The notes beneath the pieces were generated by a model. It did not search any database, was not told the DNA's origin, and saw only the letters and a list, made by a program, of their open reading frames with translations. Both the position numbers and the translations under genes were made by a program. DNA of 63,999 nt, filler included, from Vicugna vicugna (Eukaryota), in NCBI GenBank assembly GCA_013265495.1. It is 75 parts of 72 records of this genome, joined end to end, with 100 filler letters (N's around TTAATTAATTAA, not from the genome) between each part and the next. Parts side by side here need not be neighbours in the genome. Positions count along the whole stretch, not along the records: positions 16,335 to 17,262 come from PNXW01010604.1; positions 17,363 to 18,144 come from MU059690.1; positions 18,245 to 19,049 come from MU059691.1; positions 19,150 to 19,501 come from PNXW01010611.1; positions 19,602 to 20,041 come from MU059692.1; positions 20,142 to 20,673 come from PNXW01010617.1; positions 20,774 to 21,644 come from MU059694.1; positions 21,745 to 22,720 come from MU059695.1; 67 more parts are not named here. One strand, given 5' to 3'. Position 1 is the stretch's first letter. Each line of letters starts with the position of its first letter. Of this stretch, positions 16,235-61,361 are shown one piece after another.

Positions 16235-16976
16235 NNNNNNNNNNNNNNNNNNNNNNNNNNNNNNNNNNNNNNNNNNNNTTAATTAATTAANNNNNNNNNN
16301 NNNNNNNNNNNNNNNNNNNNNNNNNNNNNNNNNNAAGGGGAGGAGAGACGGGCCAGAGGGAGGGTGCTTGCTGGGACGCGCAGGGGCTCCCTGTGGCTGG
16401 GGCGGAGGGGGCAGAGAGCACGGGCGAGGTCAGCTGGGACAAGCCCTGTGGGGACAGAACTTTGAGACTCCAAAGGGATAAGGACTTTCATTACACTCCT
16501 CCTACCTGGCTAGCTGGAGCACTTCTTTCTGACTTTCTTTGAGAAATTATTATATAACATTATCAACTTCAAAATAGAATATTACCAACTTAAAAAAAGG
16601 AATAAAAAAATGCTTGTAATTTTATCATCTGACGTGGCCTTTTTTAGTTTCCAGTGTTCTTGCCCAGCCTTTTTTCACATCTACACGTATTTTTGTCTTT
16701 GTTTGTTTTCCTAAGCTTCAGATCACACTTGTTTCACAGGCTGATACAAAGTCTTCTGAATCATCAATCTAATGGTCGCAGTATGTCAAGTCAATGTCCT
16801 ACGTCTTCTTGGACACTTGGGTGACTTCCAATTGGTCCCCGTGACTGGTGATGCACAAACGTTTTTCTAGGCTTGGGTTCTTTGGGATCCCTTCCTCTTT
16901 GTAAATATTTACATAGTGACTTTGTGAGGTATTTCTTGGTAATCCCGACAGGTTCGCAGTTGTGAGACAAAATTAC

Positions 16977-17047
16977 CTGCTGATGGTGGTGGTCACCTTT
17001 TCAGAGTAGATGCCTTCCGGCACTGGTTCATACACCGCCTCCACGAT
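16977..17047 (-). CDS. NEK10: NEK10-like kinase-domain exon, copy 1 (71 bp, IVEAVYEPVPEGIYSEKVTTTISR); functional status unknown
   Basis: Minus strand reads tttggcag|ATC GTG GAG...ATC AGC AG|gtaatt. The peptide matches recalled NEK10 KIVEAVYEPVPEGIYSEKVTDTISRCL. Confidence 0.85.
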
Positions 17048-17362
17048 CTGCCAAACAAACACCGCCTCCACGATCTGCCAAACAGAGGAGAGTGACGGAC
17101 ATAAAGGACCTACGGTGCCTCTAGGGGGTGGTCCTTGGCCACAAAACTAGAGTTACTCAACAAGCATCATAACCTCGTGCACTCATTTTCATCAGAAACA
17201 AAACAGAAAAATTCATTTAAATTGAAAGTTTCTGAGCAAAAAATTGTATTTTTCAAGCTGACNNNNNNNNNNNNNNNNNNNNNNNNNNNNNNNNNNNNNN
17301 NNNNNNTTAATTAATTAANNNNNNNNNNNNNNNNNNNNNNNNNNNNNNNNNNNNNNNNNNNN

Positions 17363-18144
17363 CTGCAATCACCCCTAGCATTCCCTGGCACAGAGACATT
17401 ATCAAAAACCTCAGGGGAATCGAACTTATGAATTCCGTGAGAACCCACGCGCTGCCGACCGTTGGTGGAACCTCCCCACGCTCAGGATTCCGGAACCGTT
17501 GTCATAATGTGGGGGAGCCTGTGAGACATCTCCACGCAGCTCTCTTCAGTCACAGGTATTCCCTGTTCGGGGAAGTCCGAGAAATAACTTCACTGACCTT
17601 GGGGAGGCAGCCTCGGTCTCTGGGATATCCTGCAATCACCCCTAGCTTTCCCTGGCACAGAGACATNNNNNNNNNNNNNNNNNNNNNNNNNNNNNNNNNN
17701 NNNNNNNNNNNNNNNNNNNNNNNNNNNNNNNNNNNNNNNNNNNNNNNNNNNNNNNNNNNNNNNNNNNNNNNNNNNNNNNNNNNNNNNNNNNNNNNNNNNN
17801 NNNNNNNNNNNNNNNNNNNNNNNNNNNNNNNNNNNNNNNNNNNNNNNNNNNNNNNNNNNNNNNNNNNNNNNNNNNNNNNCTTGGGGAGGCAACCTCGGTC
17901 ACTGGGATATCCTGCAATCACCCCTGGCATTCCCTAGCACAGAGATATTAGGAAAGCCCTCAGGGGAGACGAGCTTAGGCATTCCGTTTGAACCCACGCG
18001 CTGCGGACAGTTGGTGGAACCTCCCCACGCTCAGGATTCCGGAACCGTTGTCAGTTCATGGGGTAGTTTGAGAGACATCTCCACGCAACACTCTTCATTC
18101 ATTGATTTCCCTGTTCGGGGAAGTCCGAGAAATAACTTCCCTGA
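17363..18144 (+). repeat. SatA
   Basis: SatA monomer motifs. Confidence 0.95.
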
Positions 18145-18244
18145 NNNNNNNNNNNNNNNNNNNNNNNNNNNNNNNNNNNNNNNNNNNNTTAATTAATTAA
18201 NNNNNNNNNNNNNNNNNNNNNNNNNNNNNNNNNNNNNNNNNNNN

Positions 18245-19049
18245 GAATAATTTCATCTAGACTCGTGTACACATTTACACATGCTTTCCGTAAAACCAGT
18301 TTCAACTCGTGCTTTTTTCACAGTAAAATAGTTCTGGAGCGATTTCAAACTAACAGATGTGTAATTTACATGAATTCCAACAACATGGAATTACGGGTTC
18401 CGTACATGCTACATGTATGACGGATTCGGCAATCATACGTTTCTNNNNNNNNNNNNNNNNNNNNNNNNNNNNNNNNNNNNNNNNNNNNNNNNNNNNNNNN
18501 NNNNNNNNNNNNNNNNNNNNNNNNNNNNNNNNNNNNNNNNNNNNNNNNNNNNNNNNNNNNNNNNNNNNNNNNNNNNNNNNNNNNNNNNNNNNNNNNNNNN
18601 NNNNNNNNNNNNNNNNNNNNNNNNNNNNNNNNNNNNNNNNNNNNNNNNNNNNNNNNNNNNNNNNNNNNNNNNNNNNNNNNNNNNNNNNNNNNNNNNNNNN
18701 NNNNNNNNNNNNNNNNNNNNNNNNNNNNNNNNNNNNNNNNNNNNNNNNNNNNNNNNNNNNNNNNNNNNNNNNNNNNNNNNNNNNNNNNNNNNNNNNNNNN
18801 NNNNNNNNNNNNNNNNNNNNNNNNNNNNNNNNNNNNNNNNNNNNNNNNNNNNNNNNNNNNNNNNNNNNNNNNNNNNNNNNNNNNNNNNNNNNNATCTAAA
18901 TAATATTCCGTGTTCCGTACATGCTACATAAATAACGGATTCGACAAACATGCCTTCCTGAGTTGAGGGCATCTGAATTATTCATCTTTCGTCCTGTACA
19001 AAAAGAATATTTTCATCTAGACACGTGTACAAATTTTAACATGCTTTCC
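18245..19049 (+). repeat. SatB
   Basis: SatB motifs. Confidence 0.92.
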
Positions 19050-19149
19050 NNNNNNNNNNNNNNNNNNNNNNNNNNNNNNNNNNNNNNNNNNNNTTAATTA
19101 ATTAANNNNNNNNNNNNNNNNNNNNNNNNNNNNNNNNNNNNNNNNNNNN

Positions 19150-19501
19150 TAGAATTCCCCATTGAAGCTGTACAGTCCTGGACTTTTATTTGTACGGAGT
19201 TTTTTTATTGTTAATTCAATTTCATTTCTAGTGATTGGTTTGTTCAAGTGGTTAGTTTCTTCTTGATTCAGTCTTGGTGGGCAGTATGTTTCCAGCAACT
19301 TGTCCATCTCCTCTAGGTTATCCATTTAGGTTCCATAGAGTTTTTCATGATATTCTCGTATGATATTCTGTATTTCTATGTTATTTGTTGTAATTTCTCC
19401 ATTTTCCTTTCTTATTTTGCATATTTGAATTTTGCATAGCTCTCACTTTTTCCTTCTTTGTGAGTTTGGCCAGAGGTCTGTTGATTTTATTTACTCTTTC
19501 A
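19150..19501 (-). mobile_element. LINE-1 ORF2 fragment (linker/Z-domain)
   Basis: [58 protein letters not shown]. Confidence 0.93.
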
Positions 19502-19601
19502 NNNNNNNNNNNNNNNNNNNNNNNNNNNNNNNNNNNNNNNNNNNNTTAATTAATTAANNNNNNNNNNNNNNNNNNNNNNNNNNNNNNNNNNNNNNNNNNN
19601 N

Positions 19602-20041
19602 ATGCCATGTTGATGGAATTTATGTAAATTACATATCTGTTTGGTGAAAATCGCTCCAGAAGAATTTTTCAGGGGAAAATGCACGAGTTCGAAACTGGTG
19701 TTAGGAAAAGATTGTGAAAATGGGTACACGTGTCTAGATGAAAATATTGTTTTTATAGAGGATGAAAGATCAGTAATCCACATGCTCTCAACTCAGGAAT
19801 GCATGTTTGTCGAATCCGTCATGCATGTANNNNNNNNNNNNNNNNNNNNNNNNNNNNNNNNNNNNNNNNNNNNNNNNNNNNNNNNNNNNNNNNNGGTAGA
19901 ATTCACTCCAAGAGGGTTTTTCTGGCATCAAATTGTGATTCTTGACACTGGTGAAAGGAAGAAGCAACGAAGTCTAAGTAAATATTTGAAAGTGCGTAGG
20001 TAACATTTTTGGTGGTTGAAATATCTGTCATGCGCATGTTC
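19602..20041 (-). repeat. SatB
   Basis: Reverse SatB motifs. Confidence 0.92.
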
Positions 20042-20141
20042 NNNNNNNNNNNNNNNNNNNNNNNNNNNNNNNNNNNNNNNNNNNNTTAATTAATTAANNN
20101 NNNNNNNNNNNNNNNNNNNNNNNNNNNNNNNNNNNNNNNNN

Positions 20142-20673
20142 TTGGAACACCTCTGCCCCCATTCATCTGCGTGGACTGGGTCTCCAAACCTCCCCCGCAC
20201 ACAAAAGATTCTCTGGAGTCCTGAGTGTTGGGAAGTTCCTCCAAGTGACAGCAGCACCCGGGTTCTATACAATTCCTTAGATTGTATTCCCTGATGGCTT
20301 GTCCTGCCAGGAGTGTGGGGGAAATTAGAGGTTGGGCTCTAAAACGAAGTATTAGCGAGTGCATATCCATGGGATGTGGAGGTGTTTAAGCTACATCCTC
20401 CAACCTAGGCATACACCCATGAAAAATGCGTGGACTCTGTTTCCACACCTCCAGCACACGTGCGAAGAAGTGTTCTGGTTTCCTGAGTGTGGGGAGGCTC
20501 CTCCAACTAAAAGCAGCACCAGGGATCTAATAGAATTCCTTAGCTTGACTTCCTAGAGTGTTCTCCTAGGCCGGTCTTTGAGAGAAGGAGGGGGTTGGGC
20601 TCTAAAGCCAAGTAATAGCCAGTGCCTTTCTATGGTCATTGAAGGTGTTTAAATTACATCATCTACCTGGGAA
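20142..20673 (-). repeat. SatD
   Basis: CCTGAGTGT..GG at 20220 and 20482 (period 262). Confidence 0.87.
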
Positions 20674-20773
20674 NNNNNNNNNNNNNNNNNNNNNNNNNNN
20701 NNNNNNNNNNNNNNNNNTTAATTAATTAANNNNNNNNNNNNNNNNNNNNNNNNNNNNNNNNNNNNNNNNNNNN

Positions 20774-21644
20774 ACGCGCTGCCGACCGTTGGTGGAACCT
20801 CCCCACACTCACTATTTCGGAAATATTGTCAGTGAGTGGTGGAGCTCGAGAGACAACTCCACGCAACTCTCTTCAGTCACAGGTGTTCCCTGTTCGGGGA
20901 AGACCGGGAAATAAGTTCCCTGACCTTGGGGNNNNNNNNNNNNNNNNNNNNNNNNNNNNNNNNNNNNNNNNNNNNNNNNNNNNNNNNNNNNNNNNNNNNN
21001 NNNNNNNNNNNNNNNNNNNNNNNNNNNNNNNNNNNNNNNNNNNNNNNNNNNNNNNNNNNNNNNNNNNNNNNNNNNNNNNNNNNNNNNNNNNNNNNNNNNN
21101 NNNNNNNNNNNNNNNNNNNNNNNNNNNNNNNNNNNNNNNNNNNNNNNNNNNNNNNNNNNNNNGGGAAGTCCGTAAGTTCCCTTACTTTGGGGAGGTAGCC
21201 ACGGTCACTGGGATATCCTGCAATCACCCCAAGCATTCCCTGGCACAGAGATATTAGAAAAAGCCTCAGGGAAGACGAGCTTAGTCATTTCGTTAGAACA
21301 CACGTGCTGTCGACCGTTGGTGGAACCTCCCCACGCTCAGGATTCCGGAACCATTGTCAGTGCGTGGGGGAGCTCGAGAGACATCTCCACGCATCTCTCT
21401 TCAGTCACAGGTGTTCCCTGTTCGGGGAAGTCCGGGAAATAAATTCCCTGACCTTGGGGAGGCAGCCTCGGTCACTGGGATATCCTGCAATCACCCCTAG
21501 CATTCCCTGGCACAGAGACATTAGGAAAACACTCAGGGGAAAATAGCTTAGGCATTCCGTTTGAACCCACGTGCTGCCGACAGTTGGTGGAATCTCCCAA
21601 CGATCAGGATCCCGGAACCATTGTCAGTGCGTGGGGGAGCTCGA
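20774..21644 (+). repeat. SatA
   Basis: 267-bp monomers. Confidence 0.95.
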
Positions 21645-21744
21645 NNNNNNNNNNNNNNNNNNNNNNNNNNNNNNNNNNNNNNNNNNNNTTAATTAATTAA
21701 NNNNNNNNNNNNNNNNNNNNNNNNNNNNNNNNNNNNNNNNNNNN

Positions 21745-22720: not shown

Positions 22721-23429
22721 NNNNNNNNNNNNNNNNNNNNNNNNNNNNNNNNNNNNNNNNNNNNTTAATTAATTAANNNNNNNNNNNNNNNNNNNNNNNN
22801 NNNNNNNNNNNNNNNNNNNNAACCCAAAATTTAATCATTTATTTAAAAAGTAGTTATATAAAGCCTACTTATTTTCATAAGTTGCATAAATAAAAGGGCT
22901 ATCAAAATCTACATTATTAAAGATTAAATTATACCAAATAGATCACCAAGGTTGATTGATTTTCATGATATTAATAATTTTTGAAAATATAACTTACATA
23001 TAACATATCCAAGCAGCCCTTCANNNNNNNNNNNNNNNNNNNNNNNNNNNNNNNNNNNNNNNNNNNNNNNNNNNNNNNNNNNNNNNNNNNNNNNNNNNNN
23101 NNNNNNNNNNNNNNNNNNNNNNNNNNNNNNNNNNNNNNNNNNNNNNNNNNNNNNNNNNNNNNNNNNNNNNNNNNNNNNNNNNNNNNNNNNNNNNNNNNNN
23201 NNNNNNNNNNNNNNNNNNNNNNNNNNNNNNNNNNNNNNNNNNNNNNNNNNNNNNNNNNNNNNNNNNNNNNNNNNNNNNNNNNNNNNNNNNNNNNNNNNNN
23301 NNNNNNNNNNNNNNNNNNNNNNNNNNNNNNNNNNNNNNNNNNNNNNNNNNNNNNNNNNNNNNNNNNNNNNNNNNNNNNNNNNNNNTTACTGTTTTAATAC
23401 CAACATAGGTCATTATAATTTCTTTCAAA

Positions 23430-23911
23430 TTCCATTTATGCTAGATGAACGAACGCCTCTCCACATGCTCAATTCTGACAGCTGAGTGTGTGTGAAAGCC
23501 GTCAATCACCTAGCTAGTTGGGAAAACATAGTTTCTTTTCAGTGGGAAAATACACGACATAAATATATATGGGGAGGTACTAGCTCCAATTCGGTTTAAC
23601 AGAGAAAAGTGCATGAACTTGAAACTGACACTAAGAAGCATACTGAGAAATCACATTAAGTGTTTCTATGGCTCCTCAATCCCTTTATGCTACATTAACG
23701 AATGCATCTCCACATGCTCAATTCTGAGAGTTGAATGTGCATGTAATTGGTCAATGACCTATCTTGTTGTGAACACACAGTTTCTTTAGAGTGTGGAACT
23801 AAACTAAATATATATATATATAGCTAGCTAGCTAGTAGCTCCAACACGATTTTACACTGAAAACTACATGAACTTCAAACCAGCACTAGAAAACATACGT
23901 ACAAATTGCAG
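23430..23911 (-). repeat. SatE, ~249-bp monomer distantly related to the SatB subunit
   Basis: CCACATGCTCAATTCTGA at 23461 and 23710 (period 249). The left boundary is approximate. Confidence 0.8.
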
Positions 23912-26968: not shown

Positions 26969-27185
26969 TTCTTACAGAAGCCCTCAGTGGAAAAAATGGG
27001 ACAACAAATATATGTTTGTTCATTGTAACTCAGTACTGTGCTCTATGCTGGGATTGGAGACAACTTTGTAAAATGACTGTAAATCAATAAAGAAAACTTA
27101 AAAAAATGTTATTAAGTATTACAGGTGTAAATATACATTAGAGAGAAAAAGAAAACTATGCAAAAGAGCAGTAAAACCAAAGATT
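26969..27185 (+). mobile_element. LINE-1 3' end with A-tail abutting older L1 ORF2 sequence
   Basis: GACAACTTTGTAAAATGACTGTAAATCAATAAA plus A-rich tail; near-identical to the reverse complement of 35051-35190. Confidence 0.6.
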
Positions 27186-27286
27186 NNNNNNNNNNNNNNN
27201 NNNNNNNNNNNNNNNNNNNNNNNNNNNNNTTAATTAATTAANNNNNNNNNNNNNNNNNNNNNNNNNNNNNNNNNNNNNNNNNNNNC

Positions 27287-27466
<180 letters not shown>

Positions 27467-27895
27467 GGCTGGCTGAAGGATACTGGGGAGAGGGCACTAG
27501 ACATCCTGGACAAACCATTCTCCCACGTAACTCCAAGTGTCTCTGAGCACGGGTCCTGCTGGCTAGGTAAGTGGGAGCCCTGCCGTCCTTCCTGCTTCCT
27601 CCTCATCCTCCTTGTGGGAGAAGCAACTGTTTAAGNNNNNNNNNNNNNNNNNNNNNNNNNNNNNNNNNNNNNNNNNNNNNNNNNNNNNNNNNNNNNNNNN
27701 NNNNNNNNNNNNNNNNNNNNNNNNNNNNNNNNNNNNNNNNNNNNNNNNNNNNNNNNNNNNNNNNNNNNNNNNNNNNNNNNNNNNNNNNNNNNNNNNNNNN
27801 NNNNNNNNNNNNNNNNNNNNNNNNNNNNNNNNNNNNNNNNNNNNNNNNNNNNNNNNNNNNNNNNNNNNNNNNNNNNNNNNNNNNNNNNNNNNNNN

Positions 27896-27924
<29 letters not shown>
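27896..27924. repeat. (TG)n microsatellite
   Basis: Perfect TG run at a gap edge. Confidence 0.95.
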
Positions 27925-29374: not shown

Positions 29375-30519
29375 NNNNNNNNNNNNNNNNNNNNNNNNNN
29401 NNNNNNNNNNNNNNNNNNTTAATTAATTAANNNNNNNNNNNNNNNNNNNNNNNNNNNNNNNNNNNNNNNNNNNNTCTTAGCTCAGCCAACATTTGGAACA
29501 GAAGAGCTAATTTCCAGTGAAGCCCAGGACTTTGTTGAACTCGTTCGAGTGAGATCTGATAGGATTTAGGTTTGTTTTCAGATCTGGATGTTTACTTAGC
29601 TAGAAACGTCCTGTCATTTCGATTTCCATAGTGGTTTTTATTCTTGATAAAGATTGCTTTCTTGCTGAGAGGAAATTTAATACAGCTGTTGTCTTTTTCA
29701 AAAAAAATCATATCTTTTAAGAACTTTAATATTCAAAAGAACAGGAATATATAAAATTGTTAAAGTAAGTGTTTGGTGTAGTTTCTTTGCTTTCTGAGCT
29801 AATGTGGAGTTAGAGCCTTTGCATTACTTAATAGCACATCCTTGTCAGTATTTAAAGAGCTGTTACTGAGTGCCCTAGGCCCCACCTCTCAAAGAATCAT
29901 TAAAGTTTGCTGTGAAATAGTGAGGTCATAAAGGTCTTGTTTGCAGAAATCAAAGAGTTGGTTTATAATACGCAGCATAACTCTATTTACAAAATAATAA
30001 TATGTTCAAAATTAACAAAGTGGAGGACAATTAATTTTTTTTAAAGCTGAAACATAAACTTTCTTGTGATAATGTTGCAACTGGAGATTTTGAAANNNNN
30101 NNNNNNNNNNNNNNNNNNNNNNNNNNNNNNNNNNNNNNNNNNNNNNNNNNNNNNNNNNNNNNNNNNNNNNAAAGTCAGGAGCATTCCAGCTCAGATACTG
30201 GCAGTGATGGTTGCTGGTTTTCAATGGTATAGCCTAAATTTGCCTTCTTAGCTTTTGTTTTTTTTTTGTAGTGAGCGGGTTGAGTAGTGCTTTGCCAGCA
30301 TGNNNNNNNNNNNNNNNNNNNNNNNNNNNNNNNNNNNNNNNNNNNNTTAATTAATTAANNNNNNNNNNNNNNNNNNNNNNNNNNNNNNNNNNNNNNNNNN
30401 NNGATGTTACTGACGCTAATGCCCTCACTCTCCTTGGCTGTACATTGCACCTGCATGGAACCGGGTAACAAATGGTCCATGTACCAACCTGTATTTTCAG
30501 CTTACAGGTGAATTCGGCC

Positions 30520-31169
30520 ACAATCTCCAACAAATAGCAGAAACCCTGGGAACTCTGCAAAATCAGATTGACTCTCTGGCCGAGGTGGTCTTACAAAACA
30601 GGAGGGGTCTATCCCTTACTCACGGCCAAAGAGGGGGGACTATGCCTCTTCCTAAAACAAAGAGTGCTGTTTTTATGCCAGTCCATCAGGAATTGTCAGA
30701 AGGATGGTTCAAGAGTTACAAGACCGAGTAAAAAGAGAAAACATATTTTAGATAAGAGCCCGTGAACAGGCCCCTGGGGCTGGACCTCCTGGCTGGCACC
30801 ATTCATAGGTCCCTTGCTAGTGAACAGGCCCCTGGGGCTGGACCTCCTGGCTGGCACCATTCATAGGTCCCTTGCTCCTGATTTTTGCAGTTCTGCTATT
30901 TGGGCCCTGTGTCCTAAACTTCCTGACCCGCTTTGTCAATGAGTGGATAGAGGCTATAAAACTTCAGATGCTAGCCTCCAATTATGAGCCCCTATAACAG
31001 ATAATGATGATGCTTACTCCAACTAGGGTTGTAAAAGCATCAAGAGAGGAGAATGTGAAGGAAAAGCTGGGCTGGGCTAACAAGATAACTCACAAATCTA
31101 AGTATCAGAATATGATCTGAGTTCTGCTGGACTACTCATAAATTTAAGTTAATTAGTGTTGGTTTGCTG
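30520..31169 (+). mobile_element. Decayed gamma-type (ERV1) env TM region, polypurine tract and start of 3' LTR
   Basis: LQNQIDSLAEVVLQNRRGL / LLTAKEGGLCLFL / ECCFY (immunosuppressive domain and CX6CC, split by frameshifts), TM segment PLLLIFAVLLFGPCVLNFL, PPT AAGAGAGGAGAA, then TG at 31054. Confidence 0.88.
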
Positions 31170-31749: not shown

Positions 31750-32327
31750 NNNNNNNNNNNNNNNNNNNNNNNNNNNNNNNNNNNNNNNNNNNNTTAATTA
31801 ATTAANNNNNNNNNNNNNNNNNNNNNNNNNNNNNNNNNNNNNNNNNNNNCACTTCTTTCTGACTTTCTTTGAGAAATTATTATATAACATTATCTACTTA
31901 AAAATAGAATATTCCCAACTTAAAAATAAGAATGAAAAAAATGCTTGTAATTTTATCATCTGACGTGGCCTTTTTTAATTCCTGTGTTGTTGTCCAGCCT
32001 TTTTTCATATCTACACCTATTTTAATGTCTTTTCTGATAGTTATAAACAGTTGCACATTTTGTTTTCCTAAGCTTCAGTTTGCACTTGTTTCACAGGCTG
32101 ATACAAAGTCTTCTGAATCATCAATCTAATGATCGCAGTATGTCAAGTCAATGTCCTACGTCTTCTTGGACACTTGGGTGACTTCCAATTGGTCCCCGTG
32201 ACTGGTGATGCACAAACGTTTTTCTAGGCTTGGGTTCTTTGGGATCACTTCCTCTTTGTAAATATTTACATAGTGACTTTGTGAGGTATTTCTTGGTAAT
32301 CCCGACAAGGTTGTGAGACAAAATTAC

Positions 32328-32398
32328 CTGCTGATGGTGGTGGTCACCTTTTCAGAGTAGACGCCTTCTGGTACTGGTTCATACACCGCCTCCACGAT
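32328..32398 (-). CDS. NEK10: NEK10-like exon, copy 2 (71 bp, IVEAVYEPVPEGVYSEKVTTTISR); functional status unknown
   Basis: ctctgtatggcag|ATC...AGC AG|gtaatt; flanking introns align with 16520-17215. Confidence 0.85.
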
Positions 32399-33769
32399 CT
32401 GCCATACAGAGGAGAGTGATGGATGTAAAGGACCTACGGTGCCTCTAGGGGGTGGTCCTTGGCCACAAAACTAGAGTTACTCAACAGGCATCGTAACCTC
32501 GTGCACACATTTTCATCAGAAACAAAACAGAAAAATTCNNNNNNNNNNNNNNNNNNNNNNNNNNNNNNNNNNNNNNNNNNNNTTAATTAATTAANNNNNN
32601 NNNNNNNNNNNNNNNNNNNNNNNNNNNNNNNNNNNNNNAGCTTCAGAGGGGGAGGTGGAAACTGAGTGCACTTTGTGTATTGTCACCACTGCTTCCATGG
32701 CCGTGGTGTGGGACGGCTGTGGCAGTCAAAGGCTAATGGGCCCCTCCTCTGTGATGGCACAGTGAATGAAGAAGCCATTTCTGAACAAAACCCGCTGCTA
32801 AAGATTACATCACAAATGGGAAAAATAGGTCACAAATGCCTCATTTAGGATTCAGACTAGGGACAAAGTGGCTTCTTTCTGCTCATGGAGAAGTATACAA
32901 ATGTNNNNNNNNNNNNNNNNNNNNNNNNNNNNNNNNNNNNNNNNNNNNNNNNNNNNNNNNNNNNNNNNNNNNNNNNNNNNNNNNNNNNNNNNNNNNNNNN
33001 NNNNNNNNNNNNNNNNNNNNNNNNNNNNNNNNNNNNNNNNNNNNNNNNNNNNNNNNNNNNNNNNNNNNNNNNNNNNNNNNNNNNNNNNNNNNNGAGTCTG
33101 TTTGAATGATGAGCTACTTAAAACAACAATAAGAGTGAAAACTCATAGAGAAAGGGGAGATTAATTCTGGATGAGGAAACAAAGTTTCAGTGAAGGAGCT
33201 AGTTAATATGTCAAGCAGAAGCTCTCTTTAGCTCACACGAGGCGAGGCCTGCCTCCATGATTGTAGGGTTTCATAAGGGCATAAACCACCATGGCTTAAA
33301 ATATCAAGGGGGCAGAGCATCCTTCAGCAGCTAAATGAACCTGACTTTCAGACAGGTTGAAAGCAAAGATGATCCTGTATTCCTACAGCTGTCAAACAGG
33401 ACAAAGGGACTTCTGTCACCAAGTTGTGATAATCAGAGATAAGCAAATTTCCTTCTGCCTAGTTGGTTTAAATTGCTGGTGAGTTAGTTTCCTTATTTAA
33501 GAATAGAAATATCTACCAGCACCCACAGTCTAGGAGACTGCAGAACGTCGATTATGGAAAGAACCTTAGAAATGGTTCATTGCATCCTCATAGCTGAGAA
33601 AAATCATGGCCTCAAATGTTAGCAGACTTGTTCCAAGTTGCAAAGCTCAACTCAGGGGTTTGTTGAAGANNNNNNNNNNNNNNNNNNNNNNNNNNNNNNN
33701 NNNNNNNNNNNNNTTAATTAATTAANNNNNNNNNNNNNNNNNNNNNNNNNNNNNNNNNNNNNNNNNNNN

Positions 33770-34738: not shown

Positions 34739-35190
34739 ATTTGTTTAAATCTGCACTTCTATTTAACGATTTTTTTAAATGCAAATTATTTCTTCTAGTA
34801 AACAGTTTGTTCAAATTATTTGTTTCTACTTATTTCTGTCCCTTTCTAGACATTTGTCTATTTCTTCTAAGTTGTCCAGTTTATTTGAATGTGTTGACAA
34901 AATGATCCCTTTTTTGTATATTTGAAGAAATTATTGTTATTTCTCTTCTTTTATTTCTTACTTTATTTCTTTGGGGTATCTCTCTATTCTTCATGATGCA
35001 CCTGGCTAGAGGTTTTTTGATTTTGCTTATCTTAAAAAGAAAACAAAAAAAATCTTTGGTTTTACTGCTCTTTTGCATAGTTTTCTTTTTCTCTCTAATG
35101 TAAATTACACCTGTAATACTTAATAACATTTTTTTAAGTTTTCTATATTGATTTACAGTCATTTTACAAAGTTGTCTCCAATCCCAGCAT
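34739..35190 (-). mobile_element. Old LINE-1 ORF2 fragment next to an L1 3' end
   Basis: Minus strand reads SKTKDFF..FKISKIKKPLARCIMKNRE..NKVRNKRREIT, a degenerate ORF2 linker. Confidence 0.75.
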
Positions 35191-37154: not shown

Positions 37155-37390
37155 GCCATTGGCGGAGGCCGCTGCCTCTGGCTGTCAATCCCGCGGCCCT
37201 GCCCCGCCCCACCAGCCGAGCGTGGCAGGACGCAGAGCCGCGGGGACTGGCGGGACGGCTCCAAGATGGCCGCGCTTGGGGTCCGCACCTGCTGGCGTCC
37301 CCGAGCCCCGTTCACTGCCACCGCTGCTGACCGGAGCCGCCGGTCGGCCCGGCGACTCCGGGGGCTGTCCCCGCGTGGCGGGAGGCCGCC
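37155..37390 (+). promoter_or_regulatory. HTT: HTT-like CpG-island proximal promoter and 5' UTR with upstream ATG
   Basis: Blocks colinear with the recalled HTT 5' region: GCCATTGGC, GGCTGTCAATC, GC box GCCCCGCCCC (37201-37210), CCAAGATGG (uATG 37266), GAGCCCC.TTCA.TGCC, GTCGGCCCG, GGCGGGAGGCCGCC-ATG. Confidence 0.88.
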
Positions 37391-37431
37391 ATGGTGAACC
37401 TGGAAAAGCTGGCGAAGGCCTTCGAGTGCCT
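37391..37431 (+). CDS. HTT: Divergent huntingtin exon-1 start (MVNLEKLAKAFEC[L]), truncated by N gap; paralog or pseudogene
   Basis: ATG GTG AAC CTG GAA AAG CTG GCG AAG GCC TTC GAG TGC CT versus canonical MATLEKLMKAFESL; strong Kozak GCCGCCATGG. Confidence 0.85.
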
Positions 37432-38423
37432 NNNNNNNNNNNNNNNNNNNNNNNNNNNNNNNNNNNNNNNNNNNNNNNNNNNNNNNNNNNNNNNNNNNNN
37501 NNNNNNNNNNNNNNNNNNNNNNNNNNNNNNNNNNNNNNNNNNNNNNNNNNNNNNNNNNNNNNNNNNNNNNNNNNNNNNNNNNNNNNNNNNNNNNNNNNNN
37601 NNNNNNNNNNNNNNNNNNNNNNNNNNNNNNNNNNNNNNNNNNNNNNNNNNNNNNNNNNNNNNNNNNNNNNNNNNNNNNNNNNNNNNNNNNNNNNNNNNNN
37701 NNNNNNNNNNNNNNNNNNNNNNNNNNNNNNNNNNNNNNNNNNNNNNNNNNNNNNNNNNNNNNNNNNNNNNNNNNNNNNNNNNNNNNNNNNNNAAACAGTG
37801 TTTAACTGTCAAAACACTGTATATGCAAAATACTAGGTTAACTTAAGGGAAGGAGTAGGAGAGAAGGGGGAAAGGAGCGAAGTTCACCGGTTACTTCTGT
37901 GGGGGTGGGTTAGGTGGTCACAGCGGTGAACGCTTAACTGCTACATGGCCCCGTGCGCTTACCATCATAGTCATTACTGTTACTAACCCCAGACAGCCCT
38001 GGTATTAAGGAGGCATGACCACAGAACATGTGCTCATTGAGCTTAATTTTACACAAACAGTAAGATTTCCACGGAATCAAGACAGGNNNNNNNNNNNNNN
38101 NNNNNNNNNNNNNNNNNNNNNNNNNNNNNNNNNNNNNAGCATGGCATGATCAGAACTTTAGTTTGACTGGCTTGAAATGTAGAGGGAAAGGGAAACTTCA
38201 CACTGATGAATCAGAGAGGAGATAGCTGTTTTTTATTAAACTAAAATGATTGAATGAGCCTTGTTGATTAATGATTTACCTTAGCAATTTGAATTTGGAT
38301 TCTGCAAGTATTTTACAAGTTCTNNNNNNNNNNNNNNNNNNNNNNNNNNNNNNNNNNNNNNNNNNNNTTAATTAATTAANNNNNNNNNNNNNNNNNNNNN
38401 NNNNNNNNNNNNNNNNNNNNNNN

Positions 38424-39591: not shown

Positions 39592-40134
39592 CACCTCCCC
39601 TCTCCCAACTAGTAACTGCTAGTTTTTTTTCTATATATGTGACTCTGTTTCAGTTCTTTTATATACATTTCTTTCTTTTATTTCTTAGCTCCCACATGTA
39701 ATTGATAACACAGAGTATTTGTTGTTCTCTGTCTGACTTATTTCACTAAGCATAATACCCTCTAGGTCCATCCACTTTGTTACGACTGGCAAGATTTCAT
39801 TCTTTTTTCATGGCTGAATAGCACTCCATTGTATTCCACATCTTCCTTATCCATTCATCTGTTGATGGACACTTAGGTTCCTTCCATATCTTGGCTATTA
39901 TAGATGATACTGTTATGAGCATTTGGCTGCATGCCTCTTTTCACATTCATGTTTCCATTTTCTTTGGCTATATACCTACACATTCATGTTTCCATTTTCT
40001 TTGGCTATATACCTGGCAGTGGAATTGTTGGACGATATGGTAGTTCTATTTTTATTGTTTTGCAGAACCTCCATATTACTTTCCATAGAGGTTGCACTTA
40101 TTTAGAATCACACAAACAGTGTGCAAGGGTTCCC
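39592..40134 (-). mobile_element. LINE-1 ORF2 C-terminus / 3' UTR fragment
   Basis: TCTGACTTATTTCACTAAGCATAATACCCTCTAGGTCCATCCA and CCATTCATCTGTTGATGGACACTTAGGTT are typical antisense L1 3' motifs. Confidence 0.9.
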
Positions 40135-43719: not shown

Positions 43720-43945
43720 CATTATATTTTCTAGGTCAAGGTTCTTGTCGTGTAGTTTCACAGAGTCTTCACATTTTTTCTTTAATTTTATTCATGTCTT
43801 TTTCATTCAGCAGCTTAGCTGAAGAAGCATCTTGCTCCAGTTGTAAACGTCAGATCATTAGATCTAGGCTAGCTCTATCAAGATCCATGTTCAAAAGGCA
43901 TCTACTCAGTAAGTACATGAGGGCAGCTGCACAAAGGGAAGTATT
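43720..43945 (-). pseudogene. WAPL: Unprocessed WAPL pseudogene exon (226 bp)
   Basis: Minus strand [72 protein letters not shown] matches recalled WAPL. TGA stops at 43850-43852 and 43769-43771, a 2-bp frameshift, a poly-T...AG acceptor upstream and no GT at the expected donor. Confidence 0.92.
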
Positions 43946-46391: not shown

Positions 46392-47059
46392 NNNNNNNNN
46401 NNNNNNNNNNNNNNNNNNNNNNNNNNNNNNNNNNNTTAATTAATTAANNNNNNNNNNNNNNNNNNNNNNNNNNNNNNNNNNNNNNNNNNNNTGATTAATG
46501 CTGGGTGTCTTTTTATAGGTCATTTATTAAAAAAAACTAGGGGTTCTCTAAAGAGAATTTATTTAGTATGCCTAGAATATGATTCAGTTAAAAATGATTT
46601 TCCTTTAAATACTTTTCATAAATTTTCTGTGATATTTTTCTTGAATAGTAGTTGAAGATTTCTGAGGAGGTTTTACATTTAGAAAAGTTTATTCTTGTAG
46701 CAATTGACACATTAAATAAATGATTCATAACATGGACAGCATAAAGCCCTGTTTTTTTTTTTTAATATATATAATTTTGGTGGTTAGTTCTATGACATTT
46801 TATTGGGTAGAAATATCTCCCATTTCCATTTTACAGGCAGAGAAGATGAGTCATATGTTACTCAGTATACAAGAGCAGCAGAGTCTGATTAATTTGGGCA
46901 GAAGAGTAAAAGGCTGTGGAGAAAAAAATCCTTGATTCTCAAACTGGACACATTCTGCANNNNNNNNNNNNNNNNNNNNNNNNNNNNNNNNNNNNNNNNN
47001 NNNTTAATTAATTAANNNNNNNNNNNNNNNNNNNNNNNNNNNNNNNNNNNNNNNNNNNN

Positions 47060-52840: not shown

Positions 52841-53528
52841 ACAGGTGTTCCCAGGTTTGGATGTAGTTTAAACACCTCCACTGAATATAGAGACGCACAC
52901 GCTAATACTTGGCTTTAGAGCCCAACCCCCACCTAGGCTCAGAGCCCGGCCTAGGGAAACACTGAATGATGCCAAACGTAGGGATTATATTAGATCCCAG
53001 GTGCTTCTGTCAGTTGGAGGAGTCTCCCCACACTCAGGATACCAGAACACCACATCGTGTGTGTGCTGAAGGTGGGGAAACAGTGTCCTTGCAACTTTCA
53101 GGGGGCACAGGTATTCCCAAATATTTGGTTGTAGNNNNNNNNNNNNNNNNNNNNNNNNNNNNNNNNNNNNNNNNNNNNNNNNNNNNNNNNNNNNNNNNNN
53201 NNNNNNNNNNNNNNNNNNNNNNNNNNNNNNNNNNNNNNNNNNNNNNNNNNNNNNNNNNNNNNNNNNNNNNNNNNNNNNNNNNNNNNNNNNNNNNNNNNNN
53301 NNNNNNNNNNNNNNNNNNNNNNNNNNNNNNNNNNNTGGGGAAAGATACGCATTTTTGGGGGGGCACAGTTGTTCCAAGTTTGGGGATGTATTTTAAACAC
53401 CTCCACTGCCCAGAGAGAGTCACTCGCTATTTCTAGTCATTAGTGCCCAGCACCCAACTTTGCTCACAGCCTGGCCAATGGATACACTCAGGGAAAGCAA
53501 GCCAAATGATATTATAAGTTCCCAGTTG
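52841..53528 (+). repeat. SatD
   Basis: TTAAACACCTCCAC..GCTAATACTT and GTCAGTTGGAGGAG..CCCACACTCAGGA blocks as in 15748-16234. Confidence 0.85.
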
Positions 53529-54411: not shown

Positions 54412-55335
54412 AGGTTCTTTAGGAGCGGCTAGATCAGTAGGAGCAGCAGGCTCTTCAGGAGTGGCAGGCTCCTCACGAGCAGCAAGATCAGCAGGAGCTT
54501 CAGGCTCTTCAGGAGCGTCAGGCTCAACAGGAGTGGCAACATCAGCAGGAGCTGCAGGCTCTTCAGTAGTGGCAATATCAGCAGGCTTTTCAGGAGCGGC
54601 TAGGTCATTAGGAGCAGCAGGCTCTTCAAGAGCGGCAGGCTCTTCAGCAGCGGCAAGATCAGCAGGCTCTTCAGGAGCTACAGGCTCTTCAGTAGCGGCA
54701 AAATCAGCAGGCTTTTCAGGAGCGGCTAGGTCATTAGGAGCAGCAGGCTCTTCAAGAGCGGCAGGCTCTTGAGGAGTGGCTAGATCAGCAGGAGCAGCAG
54801 GCTCTTCAGGAGTGGCAGGCTCTTCAGCAGCGGCAAGATCAGGAGGCTCTTCCGGAGCGGCAGGCTCTTCAGGAGCGGCTTGATCAGCAGGAGCGTCAGG
54901 CTCTTCAGGAAGGGCAGGCTCTTCAGGANNNNNNNNNNNNNNNNNNNNNNNNNNNNNNNNNNNNNNNNNNNNNNNNNNNNNNNNNNNNNNNNNNNNNNNN
55001 NNNNNNNNNNNNNNNNNNNNNNNNNNNNNNNNNNGCGGCAGGCTCTTCAGGTGCGGCAGGCTCTTCAGGAGCGGCAGGCTCAACAGGAGTGGCAACATCA
55101 GCAGGAGCTGCAGGCTCTTCAGTAGTGGCAAAATCAGCAGGCTTTTCAGGAGCGGCTAGGTCATTAGGAGCAGCAGGCTCTTCAAGAGCGGCAGGCTCTT
55201 CAACAGCGGCAAGATCAGCAGGCTCTTCAGGAGCGGCTTGAGCAGCAGGAGCGTCAGGCTCTTCAGGAAGGGTAGGCTCTTCAGGAGCGTCAGGCTCTTC
55301 AGGTGCAGCAGGCTGTTCAAGACTGTCAGGCTCTT
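54412..55335 (-). CDS. Putative acidic Pro/Glu/Ala repeat coding segment (PEEPAA units); product unidentified
   Basis: 18-bp unit CCTGAAGAGCCTGCCGCT with 27-bp variants. The EEP frame is stop-free in both 54412-54928 and 55035-55335. No start, stop or splice site is visible. Confidence 0.55.
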
Positions 55336-56571: not shown

Positions 56572-56671
56572 NNNNNNNNNNNNNNNNNNNNNNNNNNNNN
56601 NNNNNNNNNNNNNNNTTAATTAATTAANNNNNNNNNNNNNNNNNNNNNNNNNNNNNNNNNNNNNNNNNNNN

Positions 56672-57329
56672 TCTAAATTCTGTGTTCTGCATTCCTTGTT
56701 CTAAATTCTGGGGTCTATATTCTCTACTCTATTCTATATTGTGTGTTTTTAATTCTATAGTCTACAAAATATAGTCTGCATTCCATATACTATATTCTAT
56801 ATTATGTGTGCTACATTCTGTATTCTAAATTCTATATTCTGCATTCCGTATTCTATATTATATATTCTGTGTTTTACATTCTATATTCGAAATTATATAT
56901 TCAGTATTCAGTATTATATATATTCAGTATTCAGTATTCTATAATCTAAACTCTGTGTTCTGCATTCCTTGTTCTAATTTCTGGGTTCTATATTCTCTAC
57001 TCTATTCTATATTGTATGTTTTTCATTCTATATTCTACAAAATATAGTCTTCATTCCATATACTATATTCTATATTATGTGTTCTACAATCTATATTCTA
57101 AATTCTATATTCTGTATTCTGTATTCTTTATTCTATATTTTGTGTTCTGCATTCAATATTCTAAATTCTGGGTTCTATATTCTCTATTCTATATTCTATA
57201 TTGTGTGTTCTGCATTCTATATTCTAAATTCTATATTCAGTTTTATTTATTATATATTTAATTTCTGTGTTCTGCATTCGTTGATCTAAATTCTATATTC
57301 AGTGTTTTGTATTCTATATTCTACATTCT
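56672..57329 (+). repeat. SatC
   Basis: Heptamers. Confidence 0.95.
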
Positions 57330-57429
57330 NNNNNNNNNNNNNNNNNNNNNNNNNNNNNNNNNNNNNNNNNNNNTTAATTAATTAANNNNNNNNNNNNNNN
57401 NNNNNNNNNNNNNNNNNNNNNNNNNNNNN

Positions 57430-58384
57430 TGCATGATGGATTCCGGATACATGTGTTTCTGAGTTGTGAGCATGAGAATTACTGATCTTTCATCCACAAA
57501 ACAAGGCATATATATACTTCGAAATATTTATTCTGACTTCATAGGTTTTTCCTATCACCAGGTTCTAAAATCGGACATTTGGCACCAGAATACACTCTTT
57601 GAGCGAATACTCACCAATACACATGTAATTNNNNNNNNNNNNNNNNNNNNNNNNNNNNNNNNNNNNNNNNNNNNNNNNNNNNNNNNNNNNNNNNNNNNNN
57701 NNNNNNNNNNNNNNNNNNNNNNNNNNNNNNNNNNNNNNNNNNNNNNNNNNNNNNNNNNNNNNNNNNNNNNNNNNNNNNNNNNNNNNNNNNNNNNNNNNNN
57801 NNNNNNNNNNNNNNNNNNNNNNNNNNNNNNNNNNNNNNNNNNNNNNNNNNNNNNNNNNNNNNNNNNNNNNNNNNNNNNNNNNNNNNNNNNNNNNNNNNNN
57901 NNNNNNNNNNNNNNNNNNNNNNNNNNNNNNNNNNNNNNNNNNNNNNNNNNNNNNNNNNNNNNNNNNNNNNNNNNNNNNNNNNNNNNNNNNNNNNNNNNNN
58001 NNNNNNNNNNNNNNNNNNNNNNNNNNNNNNNNNNNNNNNNNNNNNNNNNNNNNNNNNNNNNNNNNNNNNNNNNNNNNNNNNNNNNNNNNNNNNNNNNNNN
58101 NNNNNNNNNNNNNNNNNNNNNNNNNNNNNNNNNNNNNNNNNNNNNNNNNNNNNNNNNNNNNNNNNNNNNNNNNNNNNNNNNNNNNNNNNNNNNNNNNNNN
58201 TCATGCATTTTTCACAGAAAAATAGTTCTGTAGCGATTTCCACCTAACAGATATGTAATTTACATGAATTCCCACTACGTGGCATTCCGGGTTCCGTACA
58301 TGCTACATGTATAACGGTTTCGGCAATCATACGTTTCTCACTTGTTAGCATGTGGATTACTGACCTTTCATCCCCCAAAAAATG
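57430..58384 (+). repeat. SatB (gapped)
   Basis: SatB motifs. Confidence 0.92.
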
Positions 58385-58751
58385 NNNNNNNNNNNNNNNN
58401 NNNNNNNNNNNNNNNNNNNNNNNNNNNNTTAATTAATTAANNNNNNNNNNNNNNNNNNNNNNNNNNNNNNNNNNNNNNNNNNNNCAGCAGTGTAGGAGGG
58501 TTCCCCTTTCTCCACAGCCTCTCCAGCCTAGCTACAATTCTTAACTTCAGTTTAAAAAAAGATGCTTTCATTGTCTGTTTTACTATTTTATTAAATTAAT
58601 GATAAAATCATATTCACCCAGTGACAGTCAGGGAACTTACTAATCATTAATGCTCTCCAATTATTTCTGCACTAATTCCCTCTCCCTCCTCCCACATACA
58701 CTTACACACTATGAACTTTAGCACGTGGAATCGCTTTGCAGGCTTAAGCTA

Positions 58752-59065
58752 CAGTTGTCCCACAGCATCTGTGGCGGATTTGTTCCAGGACCCCCTCAGA
58801 TATCAAAATCTGCAGATGCTAAGTCCCTTATATCAAATGGCTTAGTATTTGCATATTACCTATACGCATCCTCCCTTATACTTTAAATCATCTCTGGATT
58901 ACTTATAATACCCAATACAATGCAAATGCTCTGTAAATAGTTGCTGGACCCAGCAAATTAAAGTTTTGCTTTTTGGAACTTTCTGGATTTTTTGTTTTTA
59001 ATTTTTGACCTGCTGTTGGTTGAACTGGTGGATACAGAGAACCTGTAGATACAAAGGGCCGACTA
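58752..59065 (+). mobile_element. MER2/MER2B-type non-autonomous TcMar-Tigger DNA transposon, near full length
   Basis: TA|CAGTTGTCCC...GGGCCGACTA|TA (degenerate TIRs with TA target duplication); internal GTATTTGCATAT.ACCTA..CATCCTCCC.TATACTTTAAATCATCTCT matches the recalled MER2 consensus. Confidence 0.85.
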
Positions 59066-59212
59066 TATCTATATCTATAAATACTCCTCTAGCACTGGTA
59101 AGCAAACATCACNNNNNNNNNNNNNNNNNNNNNNNNNNNNNNNNNNNNNNNNNNNNTTAATTAATTAANNNNNNNNNNNNNNNNNNNNNNNNNNNNNNNN
59201 NNNNNNNNNNNN

Positions 59213-59769
59213 TGCAGGATATCCCAGTGTCAGAAGCTGCCTCCCCAAGTTCAGGGAGGCTATTTCTCGGACTTCTCCGAACAGGGAACACAAGTGACTG
59301 AAGAGAGCTGCGTGAAGTTTTCTCTCGAGCTCCCCCACGCACTGATAATGGTTCCGGAATCCTGAGCGTATGGAGGTTCCACCAAAGGTCGGCATCGCGT
59401 GGGTTCTAACGGAATGCCTAAGCTCGTCTCCCCTGAGGGTTTTCCTAATGTCNNNNNNNNNNNNNNNNNNNNNNNNNNNNNNNNNNNNNNNNNNNNNNNN
59501 NNNNNNNNNNNNNNNNNNNNNNNNNNNNNNNNNNNNNNNNNNNNNNNNNNNNNNNNNNNNNNNNNNNNNNNNNNNNNNNNNNNNNNNNNNNNNNNNNNNN
59601 NNNNNNNNNNNNNNNNNNNNNNNNNNNNNNNNNNNNNNNNNNNNNNNNNNNNNNNNNGGCAGCGCGTATAACGGAATGCATTAGCTCGTCTCCGCTGAGG
59701 CTTTTCCTTATGTCTCTGTGCCATGGAATGCTAGGGATGATTGCAGGGTATCCCAGTGTCAGAGGCTGC
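59213..59769 (-). repeat. SatA
   Basis: Reverse SatA motifs. Confidence 0.93.
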
Positions 59770-59869
59770 NNNNNNNNNNNNNNNNNNNNNNNNNNNNNNN
59801 NNNNNNNNNNNNNTTAATTAATTAANNNNNNNNNNNNNNNNNNNNNNNNNNNNNNNNNNNNNNNNNNNN

Positions 59870-60686
59870 TAAATTCTGTGTTCTATAATCTCTATTCTAT
59901 ATTCTATATTCTGTTTTCTACATTCTATAAAATAAATTATATTTTCAGTATTCTGTATTCTGTATTCTAAATTATGTGTTCTGCATTCCATGTTCTAAAT
60001 TCTGGGTTCTATATTCTCTATTCAATATTCTATATTCTGTGTACGACATTCTATATTCTAAATTCTATATTCAGTATTCTGTATTCTACATTCTAAATTC
60101 TGTGTTCTGTATGCTATGTTCTTAATACTAAATTCATTATTCTGTATTCGATATTCTAAATTCTGTGTTCTGCATTCTATCTTCTAAATTCTATATTCAT
60201 AATTCTGTATTCTGTATTCTATATTCTAAATTCTGTCTTCTGCATTCCATGTTCAAAATTCTGGGTTCTGTATTCTCTATTCTCTATTCTATATTCTGTG
60301 TTCTACATTCTATATTCTAAATCCTATATTCAGTATTATTATTATAAATTCTGTTTCTGCATTCCATTTTCTAAATTCTGTTTTCTGTATTTTGTTATCC
60401 ATATTCTATATTCTGTGTTCTACATTCCATGTTCTAAATTTTGGATTCTGTATTCTGTTTTCCATATTCTATATTCTGTGTTCTACATTCTATAATTTAA
60501 ATCCTATATTCAGTATACTTTACACTATATTCTAAATTCTGTGTTCTACATTCCATGTTCTAAATTCTGGGTTCTGCATTCTATATTCTATATTCTAAAT
60601 TCTGTATTCAGTATTCTCTATTCTATATTCTAATTTCTGATTTCTGCATTCCATGTTCTAAATTCTGGGTTGTCTATTCTCTATTC
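59870..60686 (+). repeat. SatC
   Basis: Heptamers. Confidence 0.95.
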
Positions 60687-61361
60687 NNNNNNNNNNNNNN
60701 NNNNNNNNNNNNNNNNNNNNNNNNNNNNNNTTAATTAATTAANNNNNNNNNNNNNNNNNNNNNNNNNNNNNNNNNNNNNNNNNNNNTTGATTCTCAGACT
60801 GGACACATTCTGTGGTGCTGTGCAGCTGAAATGGTTTAGAATTTGTTTCTGGGTTGTCCTAGTTTTCAGCGCATGTGCCTGGAAAGCTCTCTTAGGCAAA
60901 CATGCTAATTTAAGAAGGTTGTCATTATAAATGCTCTTAAGAGGATTAAACAAATTCCACAGCAAATAAATGAACATGTTTGGAAGGTTTTCCACCCTCA
61001 TGTAATTTCCAGAAAACAGACAATATTCACTTGCTAAACCAAAGACACAGGTATATTAATGAGCCTGGCTTACATGACTGGACAGCACGGAGGGAGCCTC
61101 ATCTATTGGCGTGGGTTCTGCTGCAGGAACCGCATCTGAAGATAATTAGAATTCCAGCGAGTGCTGCTCCCGCCTTTCTCTCCCCAAAGTAAGGAAGAGC
61201 CCTCCTTGCCTGGCCATTAGTGTGCAGAGCCCTGCGGCTCACACACTCCACTGCTCATCAGNNNNNNNNNNNNNNNNNNNNNNNNNNNNNNNNNNNNNNN
61301 NNNNNTTAATTAATTAANNNNNNNNNNNNNNNNNNNNNNNNNNNNNNNNNNNNNNNNNNNN

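What the first reader, a model, noticed from the sequence alone, without database searches (positions are those of the whole stretch)
16520..60812. Recurrent paralogous non-satellite contigs suggest a high-copy duplicon carrying gene fragments
Seen: three pairs among fewer than 30 non-satellite contigs. They are the NEK10 pair (16520-17215 / 31850-32538), an L1-tail/old-L1 junction (27046-27185 / reverse complement of 35051-35190) and a 25/26-bp end overlap (46932-46957 / 60787-60812). The same pool holds genomic-type HTT and WAPL copies. Inference: one or more mosaic segmental duplications amplified in satellite-rich regions, a possible source of chimeric genes such as an HTT promoter driving captured exons. 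Physical linkage is not shown, because the joins are artificial.
Basis: partly seen in the sequence, partly recalled or inferred. Interest (0 to 1): 0.7.

Follow-up and report, generated by a model that had tools for sequence, protein, structure and literature searches.

The report
Amplified NEK10 and HTT gene fragments
These short leftover contigs of a camelid genome are pieces of several multi-copy blocks of broken gene fragments: the NEK10 block is already published for alpaca, while tens of copies of the huntingtin gene's promoter and first exon, some still transcribed, appear not to have been described.

Summary
The three pairs are real. The window is 75 linker-joined short scaffolds of a camelid; 26 are not tandem repeats. 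The NEK10 pair differs by 4.2%, so it is paralogous. It belongs to a published block: 18 NEK10-like copies among satellites on alpaca chromosome 17 (PMC13751797). Ten RefSeq NEK10-like models share the parent's 55.6-Mb sequence and lack the catalytic motifs. A third contig (32639-33669) matches one of them. The HTT exon-1 contig is also high-copy: window-like contigs are 8-66 times, or 18-110 times, deeper than the candidate single-copy classes in two DNA runs. Annotated HTT exon-1 copies lie on a different alpaca sequence and on two Bactrian camel scaffolds, so one shared duplicon is not supported. The multi-copy HTT class gives capped-type 5' reads at 37251-37260, but no fusion partner was seen. 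The WAPL exon is dead; its copy number is untested, as is the origin of the L1-junction and 26-bp pairs. The scan noted similar camelid fragment families on other DNA. Verdict: ordinary mosaic segmental duplication, largely known; the transcribed HTT exon-1 family is the new part.

The parts
16520..17214 (-). NEK10 genomic fragment, copy 1 (intron, 71-nt exon at 16977-17047, intron); the exon carries the Ile variant seen in a subset of NEK10-like models; 27-bp exact tandem copy at 17032-17084 repeats the acceptor
31850..32538 (-). NEK10 genomic fragment, copy 2 (71-nt exon at 32328-32398, AG and GT intact, peptide identical to the parent NEK10); parent locus or a close copy
32639..33669 (-).
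27045..27185 (+). L1-tail / old-L1 junction, copy 1 (repeat labels by eye and recall)
35051..35190 (-). Same junction, copy 2 (138 of 141 identical)
37155..37431 (+). HTT promoter, 5'UTR and start of exon 1 (ATG at 37391; GC 74%, CpG o/e 0.84); 5' read ends at 37251-37260; member of a high-copy family
37793..38323 (+). Intron-1-type sequence scaffolded to the HTT exon across a 361-N gap; also high depth in DNA runs
43720..43945 (-). WAPL exon with upstream polypyrimidine tract and AG; two in-frame TGA and a frameshift near its 3' end; dead genomic copy (3' limit approximate)
46932..46957 (+). End of a contig that overlaps the start of another, 25 of 26
60787..60812 (+). Partner of the 26-bp overlap

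Best explanation
The window is the leftover bin of a short-read assembly of a South American camelid: satellites plus scraps of multi-copy segmental duplications that could not be placed. The scraps come from at least two separate families. (1) The chromosome 17 block, in which the 3' half of NEK10 was copied about 18 times between satellite arrays next to the parent gene; the copies lack the N-lobe, HRD and DFG motifs and drift like pseudogenes. (2) An older family of HTT promoter / exon-1 / intron-1 copies, tens of copies strong, present in camels too; some copies keep their CpG island and still start capped transcripts at the inherited start site. WAPL is a further dead fragment of unknown home. 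Likely mechanism (inferred): DNA-level duplication of gene pieces into satellite-rich, low-recombination domains, then amplification by unequal crossing-over and conversion among satellite-flanked units. Transcription is a by-product of a copied promoter.
For: Shown: 4.2% divergence of the NEK10 pair with introns. Ten alpaca NEK10-like proteins, 9 distinct over a 136-residue core, all on the parent's 55,628,672-bp sequence, all joining NEK10 at about residue 699, after HRD (653) and DFG (673). Their 1-10 differences in 136 residues are about what neutral drift would give beside 4.2% DNA divergence (rough inference). PMC13751797 (results and discussion read): 18 copies in a ~4-Mb discontinuous satellite block, single copy in dromedary and Bactrian assemblies, similar blocks on chromosomes 11 and 36. 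Three overlaps among 325 pairs imply an effective source pool near 120 kb (95% range 42-600 kb) against 0.0002 overlaps expected from a 2.2-Gb genome (size assumed). HTT: contigs close to the window have depth 575-1219 in run X2 and 149-787 in X1; more distant classes have 51-74 and 11 in X2, 12-20 (one at 34) and 8 in X1. Three annotated exon-1 copies in alpaca and Bactrian camel. RNA: in X24, 206 of 275 laid reads have loose 5' ends at 37251-37260 that look like a template-switch tail (label recalled); 130 of 238 reads (30 starts) carry the insertion that marks the high-copy DNA class. In X17 depth is about 1730-1760 over 37272-37388 against 48 upstream and 64-470 in the intron.
Against: No genome was held, so no contig was mapped. 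The tool states that contig depth is not a copy number, and which class is the single-copy parent is inferred. Only 1 of 275 X24 reads is at least 99% like this contig, so siblings, not this copy, are transcribed; the largest 5' pile (118 reads, 0.87 agreement) is partly PCR copies. X24 is only guessed to be RNA and no silent control stretch was laid. Only three HTT copies are annotated, so HTT copies inside the NEK10 block are not excluded. A NEK10-like model exists in wild camel (P0029), which blurs the reported absence from camels. The two short pairs and WAPL have no copy-number data.
Confidence: 0.8

Rival explanations
1. One mosaic duplicon carries NEK10, HTT, WAPL and the two short pairs together and is amplified as a unit.
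For: The effective pool of about 120 kb is the size of one unit. Two NEK10-like models start with a MAPK1-exon-1-like stretch (12 of 16 residues; E 0.26, 55 of 56 PDB hits named MAPK1/ERK2), so the NEK10 block is itself mosaic.
Against: NEK10-like models are confined to one 55.6-Mb sequence; the one annotated alpaca HTT copy is on a 99.4-Mb sequence and two more are in Bactrian camel. The paper on the block names neither huntingtin nor WAPL. The three fragments differ in decay: NEK10 exon intact, WAPL with two stops and a frameshift.
Confidence: 0.1
2. The two short pairs are not duplications but redundant assembly (alleles, errors, k-mer-end overlap) or an unrecognised interspersed repeat; only NEK10 and HTT are truly amplified.
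For: Pair 2 differs at only 3 of 141 positions and is wholly L1-derived; pair 3 is a 26-bp end-to-start overlap. The contigs show assembly flaws: exact tandem copies of 27, 58 and 37 bp, and window letters that no laid contig shares at several HTT positions. No repeat library was available.
Against: Two pieces of one single-copy locus in a 64-kb sample of the bin is itself unlikely (0.0002 expected genome-wide); pair 2 spans a locus-specific junction. This rival is compatible with the best explanation for NEK10 and HTT.
Confidence: 0.25
3. HTT promoter copies are functional gene starters: they drive spliced chimeric mRNAs or an exon-1-like peptide that selection keeps.
For: CpG island retained; 5' ends cluster at one site in both allele classes; exon depth exceeds intron depth in RNA; the window copy keeps its ATG and an open frame up to the gap; five X24 reads run on into sequence matching the annotated alpaca copy P0159.
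Against: No splice partner among the 22 loose ends shown (8 not shown). The RefSeq models read the exon in another frame and place it at or near their 3' end, not as a first exon. Four of 13 N-terminal residues are changed in the window copy. Tens of copies give about as many reads as one low-copy class, so most copies are quiet.
Confidence: 0.12

Closest known systems
Pseudogene-rich repetitive block of alpaca chromosome 17 with 18 NEK10-like copies (PMC13751797; abstract, results, discussion and the spreadsheet supplement read; slide supplement and figures not readable)
   Same: Same gene, genomic (intron-containing) partial copies, satellite neighbourhood, multi-copy; three window contigs fit it.
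   Different: The paper does not mention HTT or WAPL fragments or transcription of copies, and reports a single NEK10 in camels, whereas a wild-camel NEK10-like model exists.
Primate mosaic segmental duplications and fusion genes, e.g. HYDIN2 (PMC5345166; abstract read) and core duplicons such as LCR16a/NPIP (PMC7419210; search listing only)
   Same: Partial gene copies with introns, mosaics of unrelated donors, transcription from a promoter that lies in a duplication.
   Different: No fusion transcript, selection signal or shared core was shown here; copies sit among large satellite arrays.
Human HTT exon 1 (N17 sequence as printed in PMC6779701; one passage read)
   Same: 5'UTR, start codon and N17-like frame followed by a CAG/CCG-type run; CpG island.
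   Different: Four of 13 residues changed in the window copy, tens of copies, and no evidence that the rest of the gene was copied beyond early intron 1.

Membership tests
Segmental duplication (low-copy repeat) | Copies at least 90% identical | tested here: met
   NEK10 pair 95.8% over aligned bases; HTT window-like contigs 96-100%
Segmental duplication (low-copy repeat) | DNA-level copy with introns, not a retrocopy | tested here: met
   AG/GT-bounded NEK10 exon with flanking introns, WAPL acceptor, HTT promoter plus intron
Segmental duplication (low-copy repeat) | Duplicated unit of at least 1 kb | tested here: inconclusive
   Contigs are under 1.5 kb; NEK10-like models span many exons, which implies long units, but no unit was mapped
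Alpaca chr17 NEK10-like block | 3' NEK10 fragment matching annotated copies | tested here: met
   Exon variant shared with P0001, P0002, P0028; contig 32639-33669 matches the tail of P0032
Alpaca chr17 NEK10-like block | Position within 2.5-7.5 Mb of chromosome 17 | not testable with these tools
   No genome held; only the shared 55.6-Mb sequence length is known
Single mosaic duplicon (NEK10+HTT+WAPL) | Fragments physically linked in one repeated unit | tested here: inconclusive
   Annotated copies lie on different sequences and differ in species range, which argues against; unannotated copies cannot be seen
Core duplicon / fusion gene (HYDIN2, NPIP type) | Transcription from the duplicated segment | tested here: met
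   5' read ends and class-specific alleles in X24; exon-over-intron depth in X17, with the caveats given
Core duplicon / fusion gene (HYDIN2, NPIP type) | Spliced fusion transcript joining exons of different donors | tested here: inconclusive
   None seen for HTT (the exon's 3' end lies in an N gap); MAPK1-like start on NEK10 exons exists only as predicted models
Core duplicon / fusion gene (HYDIN2, NPIP type) | Open frame under selection | not tested
   No copy DNA available for dN/dS; NEK10-like protein divergence is compatible with drift

The most novel reading that the evidence does not exclude
Camelids carry tens (perhaps 50-100) of copies of the huntingtin promoter and repeat-bearing exon 1. 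A subset are active promoters that make HTT-exon-1-like RNAs or peptides, or splice into captured exons, and so act as a camelid core duplicon. That would be a natural multi-copy source of the fragment that is toxic when expanded in Huntington disease, tolerated since before camels and alpacas split.
Probability: 0.15. Interest if true: 0.7.

Novelty: new member of a known kind. Interest (0 to 1): 0.36.

Why it matters
The NEK10 part confirms a 2026 paper from an independent, fragmentary assembly and explains why such contigs stay unplaced. The HTT part adds an amplified, partly transcribed promoter/exon-1 family that I did not find in print. It matters in practice for camelid RNA-seq, copy-number calling and annotation, where these copies appear as uncharacterised genes or inflate HTT. 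It would matter more if the copies make fusion mRNAs or exon-1 peptides, since promoter capture is how several primate genes arose and HTT exon 1 has a central place in Huntington disease.

Tried and rejected
No whole genome was held, so direct mapping failed. The repeat finder was swamped by N runs; I split contigs and used BLAST instead. New splice donor at the HTT start codon: two RNA contigs of X17 stop matching at 37394, where the window has GT; rejected, because the ancestral base at 37395 explains a 3-base clip and DNA depth falls there too. I first took the depth-51 contig class as the parent HTT; this is unproven, since a rarer, about 82%-identical class with long contigs fits a single-copy locus at least as well, so both baselines are given. 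PDB searches with the HTT piece and with an exon-like stretch at 27287-27463 found nothing. Pfam on 95 stop-free stretches of 40 or more residues, drawn from 14 of the 26 non-tandem contigs, gave 3 hits, all below cut-off. The WAPL search listed 120 of 358 hits with no camelid WAPL-like model among them, so it says nothing on copy number. Earlier-finding look-ups by sequence for the NEK10 and WAPL contigs were empty. The camelid CNV preprint (10.1101/2025.08.28.672513; term search only) names neither NEK10, WAPL nor huntingtin; its supplement was not seen. Paper searches for a 267-bp alpaca satellite and for camelid HTT copies found nothing relevant; the VicPac4 genome paper itself (Genomics 2026, seen only in a reference list) was not read and may mention these families.
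Full report
What the window is. It holds 75 short scaffolds joined by a 44N-linker-44N spacer, so neighbours are not linked. 49 of 75 are tandem repeats: 19 of a 267-bp family, 16 of a second family, 11 of a 7-mer family and 3 others; 26 of 75 (15,464 called bases) are not. No whole genome was held. The closest named proteins are alpaca and camel, so the source is a camelid, most likely South American.

The observation. All three pairs are there. The NEK10 pair aligns over 16520-17214 and 31850-32538 with 633 matches and 28 substitutions (4.2%), two larger gaps, and an exact 27-bp tandem copy in the first contig. That is too distant for alleles (inference). The L1 junction pair is 138 of 141, and the end overlap 25 of 26. 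Of 325 pairs among the 26 contigs, 6 share a 26-mer with at most one mismatch: these three and three plain L1 pairs. 60 Markov resamples gave none, though that control ignores interspersed repeats. Three overlaps imply an effective source pool of about 120 kb (95% range 42-600 kb); random draws from a 2.2-Gb genome (size assumed) would give 0.0002.

NEK10. Both contigs carry one 71-nt exon with AG and GT intact. A search with it returned 27 proteins among 34 candidates, all named NEK10 or NEK10-like, six of them alpaca 'Nek10-like' clusters. Cluster look-up gave ten alpaca NEK10-like proteins, all on the same 55,628,672-bp sequence as the true NEK10, and one wild-camel model. All ten join NEK10 at about residue 699, downstream of HRD (653) and DFG (673), so they cannot be kinases; they differ from the parent at 1-10 of 136 residues. 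The first contig carries a variant shared with three of the models; the second equals the parent peptide. PMC13751797 (results and discussion read) describes this block: 18 NEK10-like copies in about 4 Mb of discontinuous satellite on alpaca chromosome 17, one NEK10 in two camel assemblies, and similar blocks on chromosomes 11 and 36. The NEK10 amplification is therefore known. Two models, P0032 (alpaca) and P0029 (wild camel), begin with a stretch like MAPK1 exon 1 (12 of 16 residues for P0032; weak E of 0.26, but 55 of 56 hits are named MAPK1/ERK2). This suggests the block is a mosaic with a captured first exon, but these are predictions.

HTT. The contig 37155-38323 has a CpG island (GC 74%, o/e 0.84), an ATG at 37391 and a frame that matches 9 of 13 residues of the human N-terminus as printed in PMC6779701; an N gap hides the rest of the exon. 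Laid on two DNA runs, contigs close to the window have depths of 575, 945 and 1219 (X2) and 149, 287 and 787 (X1). An about 89%-identical class has 51-74 and 12-20; an about 82%-identical class with long contigs has 11 and 8. Against the first baseline the window class is 8-66 times deeper, against the second 18-110 times. The tool warns that such depth is not a copy number, and I could not prove which class is the parent; tens of copies is the fair reading. A protein search found three uncharacterised models that read an HTT exon-1 copy in a shifted frame: one alpaca, on a 99,448,167-bp sequence, and two Bactrian camel, on 7.1- and 14.4-Mb scaffolds. So this family is on another chromosome than the NEK10 models, at least for the copy seen, and predates or parallels the camel-alpaca split.

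Transcription. In raw reads of X24 (single-cell library, about 1 in 100 read, RNA by guess) 275 reads were laid. 206 have loose 5' ends at 37251-37260 that end in what I recall as a template-switch tail, which marks capped 5' ends. 130 of 238 reads carry the two-base insertion of the high-copy DNA class and 105 of 245 the insertion of the depth-51 class, each from about 30 starts. Against this: the largest pile is partly PCR copies, only 1 of 275 reads is 99% or more like this contig, and no silent control was laid. In RNA run X17 two contigs of the high-copy type cover 37271-37394 at depths 842 and 888, against 48 upstream and 64-470 in the intron. Five X24 reads run on into letters that match the alpaca model P0159. 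No splice partner appears among the 22 loose ends shown (8 hidden). The promoter copies are thus active in part, and fusion is untested.

WAPL and the short pairs. The WAPL exon is confirmed, has a genomic acceptor, two in-frame stops and a frameshift: a dead DNA-level copy, with no count. The two short pairs fit a multi-copy source, but redundant assembly or an unrecognised repeat is not excluded; exact tandem copies inside three contigs show that the assembly is rough.

Mechanism. Shown: intron-containing partial copies, many of them, in a bin dominated by satellites; a retained and partly active HTT promoter. From the paper: the NEK10 copies alternate with satellite arrays beside the parent gene. 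Inferred: gene pieces were copied into satellite-rich domains and amplified there by unequal crossing-over and conversion; most decay; transcription follows from a copied CpG-island promoter. I put 0.8 on several separate blocks, 0.1 on one shared unit and 0.12 on a selected HTT-driven product; the last is not exclusive of the first.

Comparison and novelty. It works like primate mosaic segmental duplications (HYDIN2, PMC5345166, abstract read). It meets the identity and intron tests; unit length, linkage, fusion splicing and selection are open. Earlier notes of this scan report the same pattern for PADI3, ANO6, ADCY1, KIF21A and USP3/COL12A1/MAPK1 in this genome; I did not check them, and they are not counted as support. 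I found no paper on camelid HTT copies, but the library lacks most subscription papers, I did not read the VicPac4 paper, and the slide supplement of PMC13751797 could not be read. Verdict: a new member of a known kind; interest 0.36.

Noticed in passing
P0032 and P0029 (RefSeq models; not in the window): A MAPK1-exon-1-like start is joined to NEK10 3' exons in one alpaca and one wild-camel model: a candidate promoter-capture fusion at the seed of the chromosome 17 block.
   Followed up: partly
window 61362-62042 and 22821-23911: A further tandem repeat of about 244 bp; the two contigs are 71% identical over 469 bp. Not matched to a named satellite.
   Followed up: no
window 54412-55335: GC-rich 9/18-bp repeat with a long Pro/Glu/Ala frame on the minus strand; by eye it matches the visible start of the VpaSat05-8550 monomer in the supplement of PMC13751797.
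   Followed up: partly
window 9530-10459, 15748-16234, 20142-20673, 52841-53528: Diverged relatives (72-80%) of the 267-bp satellite; by eye like VpaSat15/16 of the same supplement.
   Followed up: partly
window 30403-31169: Fragment of an endogenous retrovirus env end with frame breaks and an exact 58-bp tandem copy (label from recalled motifs). Described only.
   Followed up: no
window 5806-6375: GC-rich (65%) partly decayed CpG island (o/e 0.49) with a short CAG run; probably another copied gene start; no Pfam hit above cut-off.
   Followed up: partly
window 27286-27635: Exon-like stretch ending at a GTAAGT donor, with an in-frame stop; unidentified.
   Followed up: partly
window 17032-17084, 30762-30876, 39942-40014: Exact tandem copies of 27, 58 and 37 bp inside contigs, likely assembly artefacts.
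   Followed up: no
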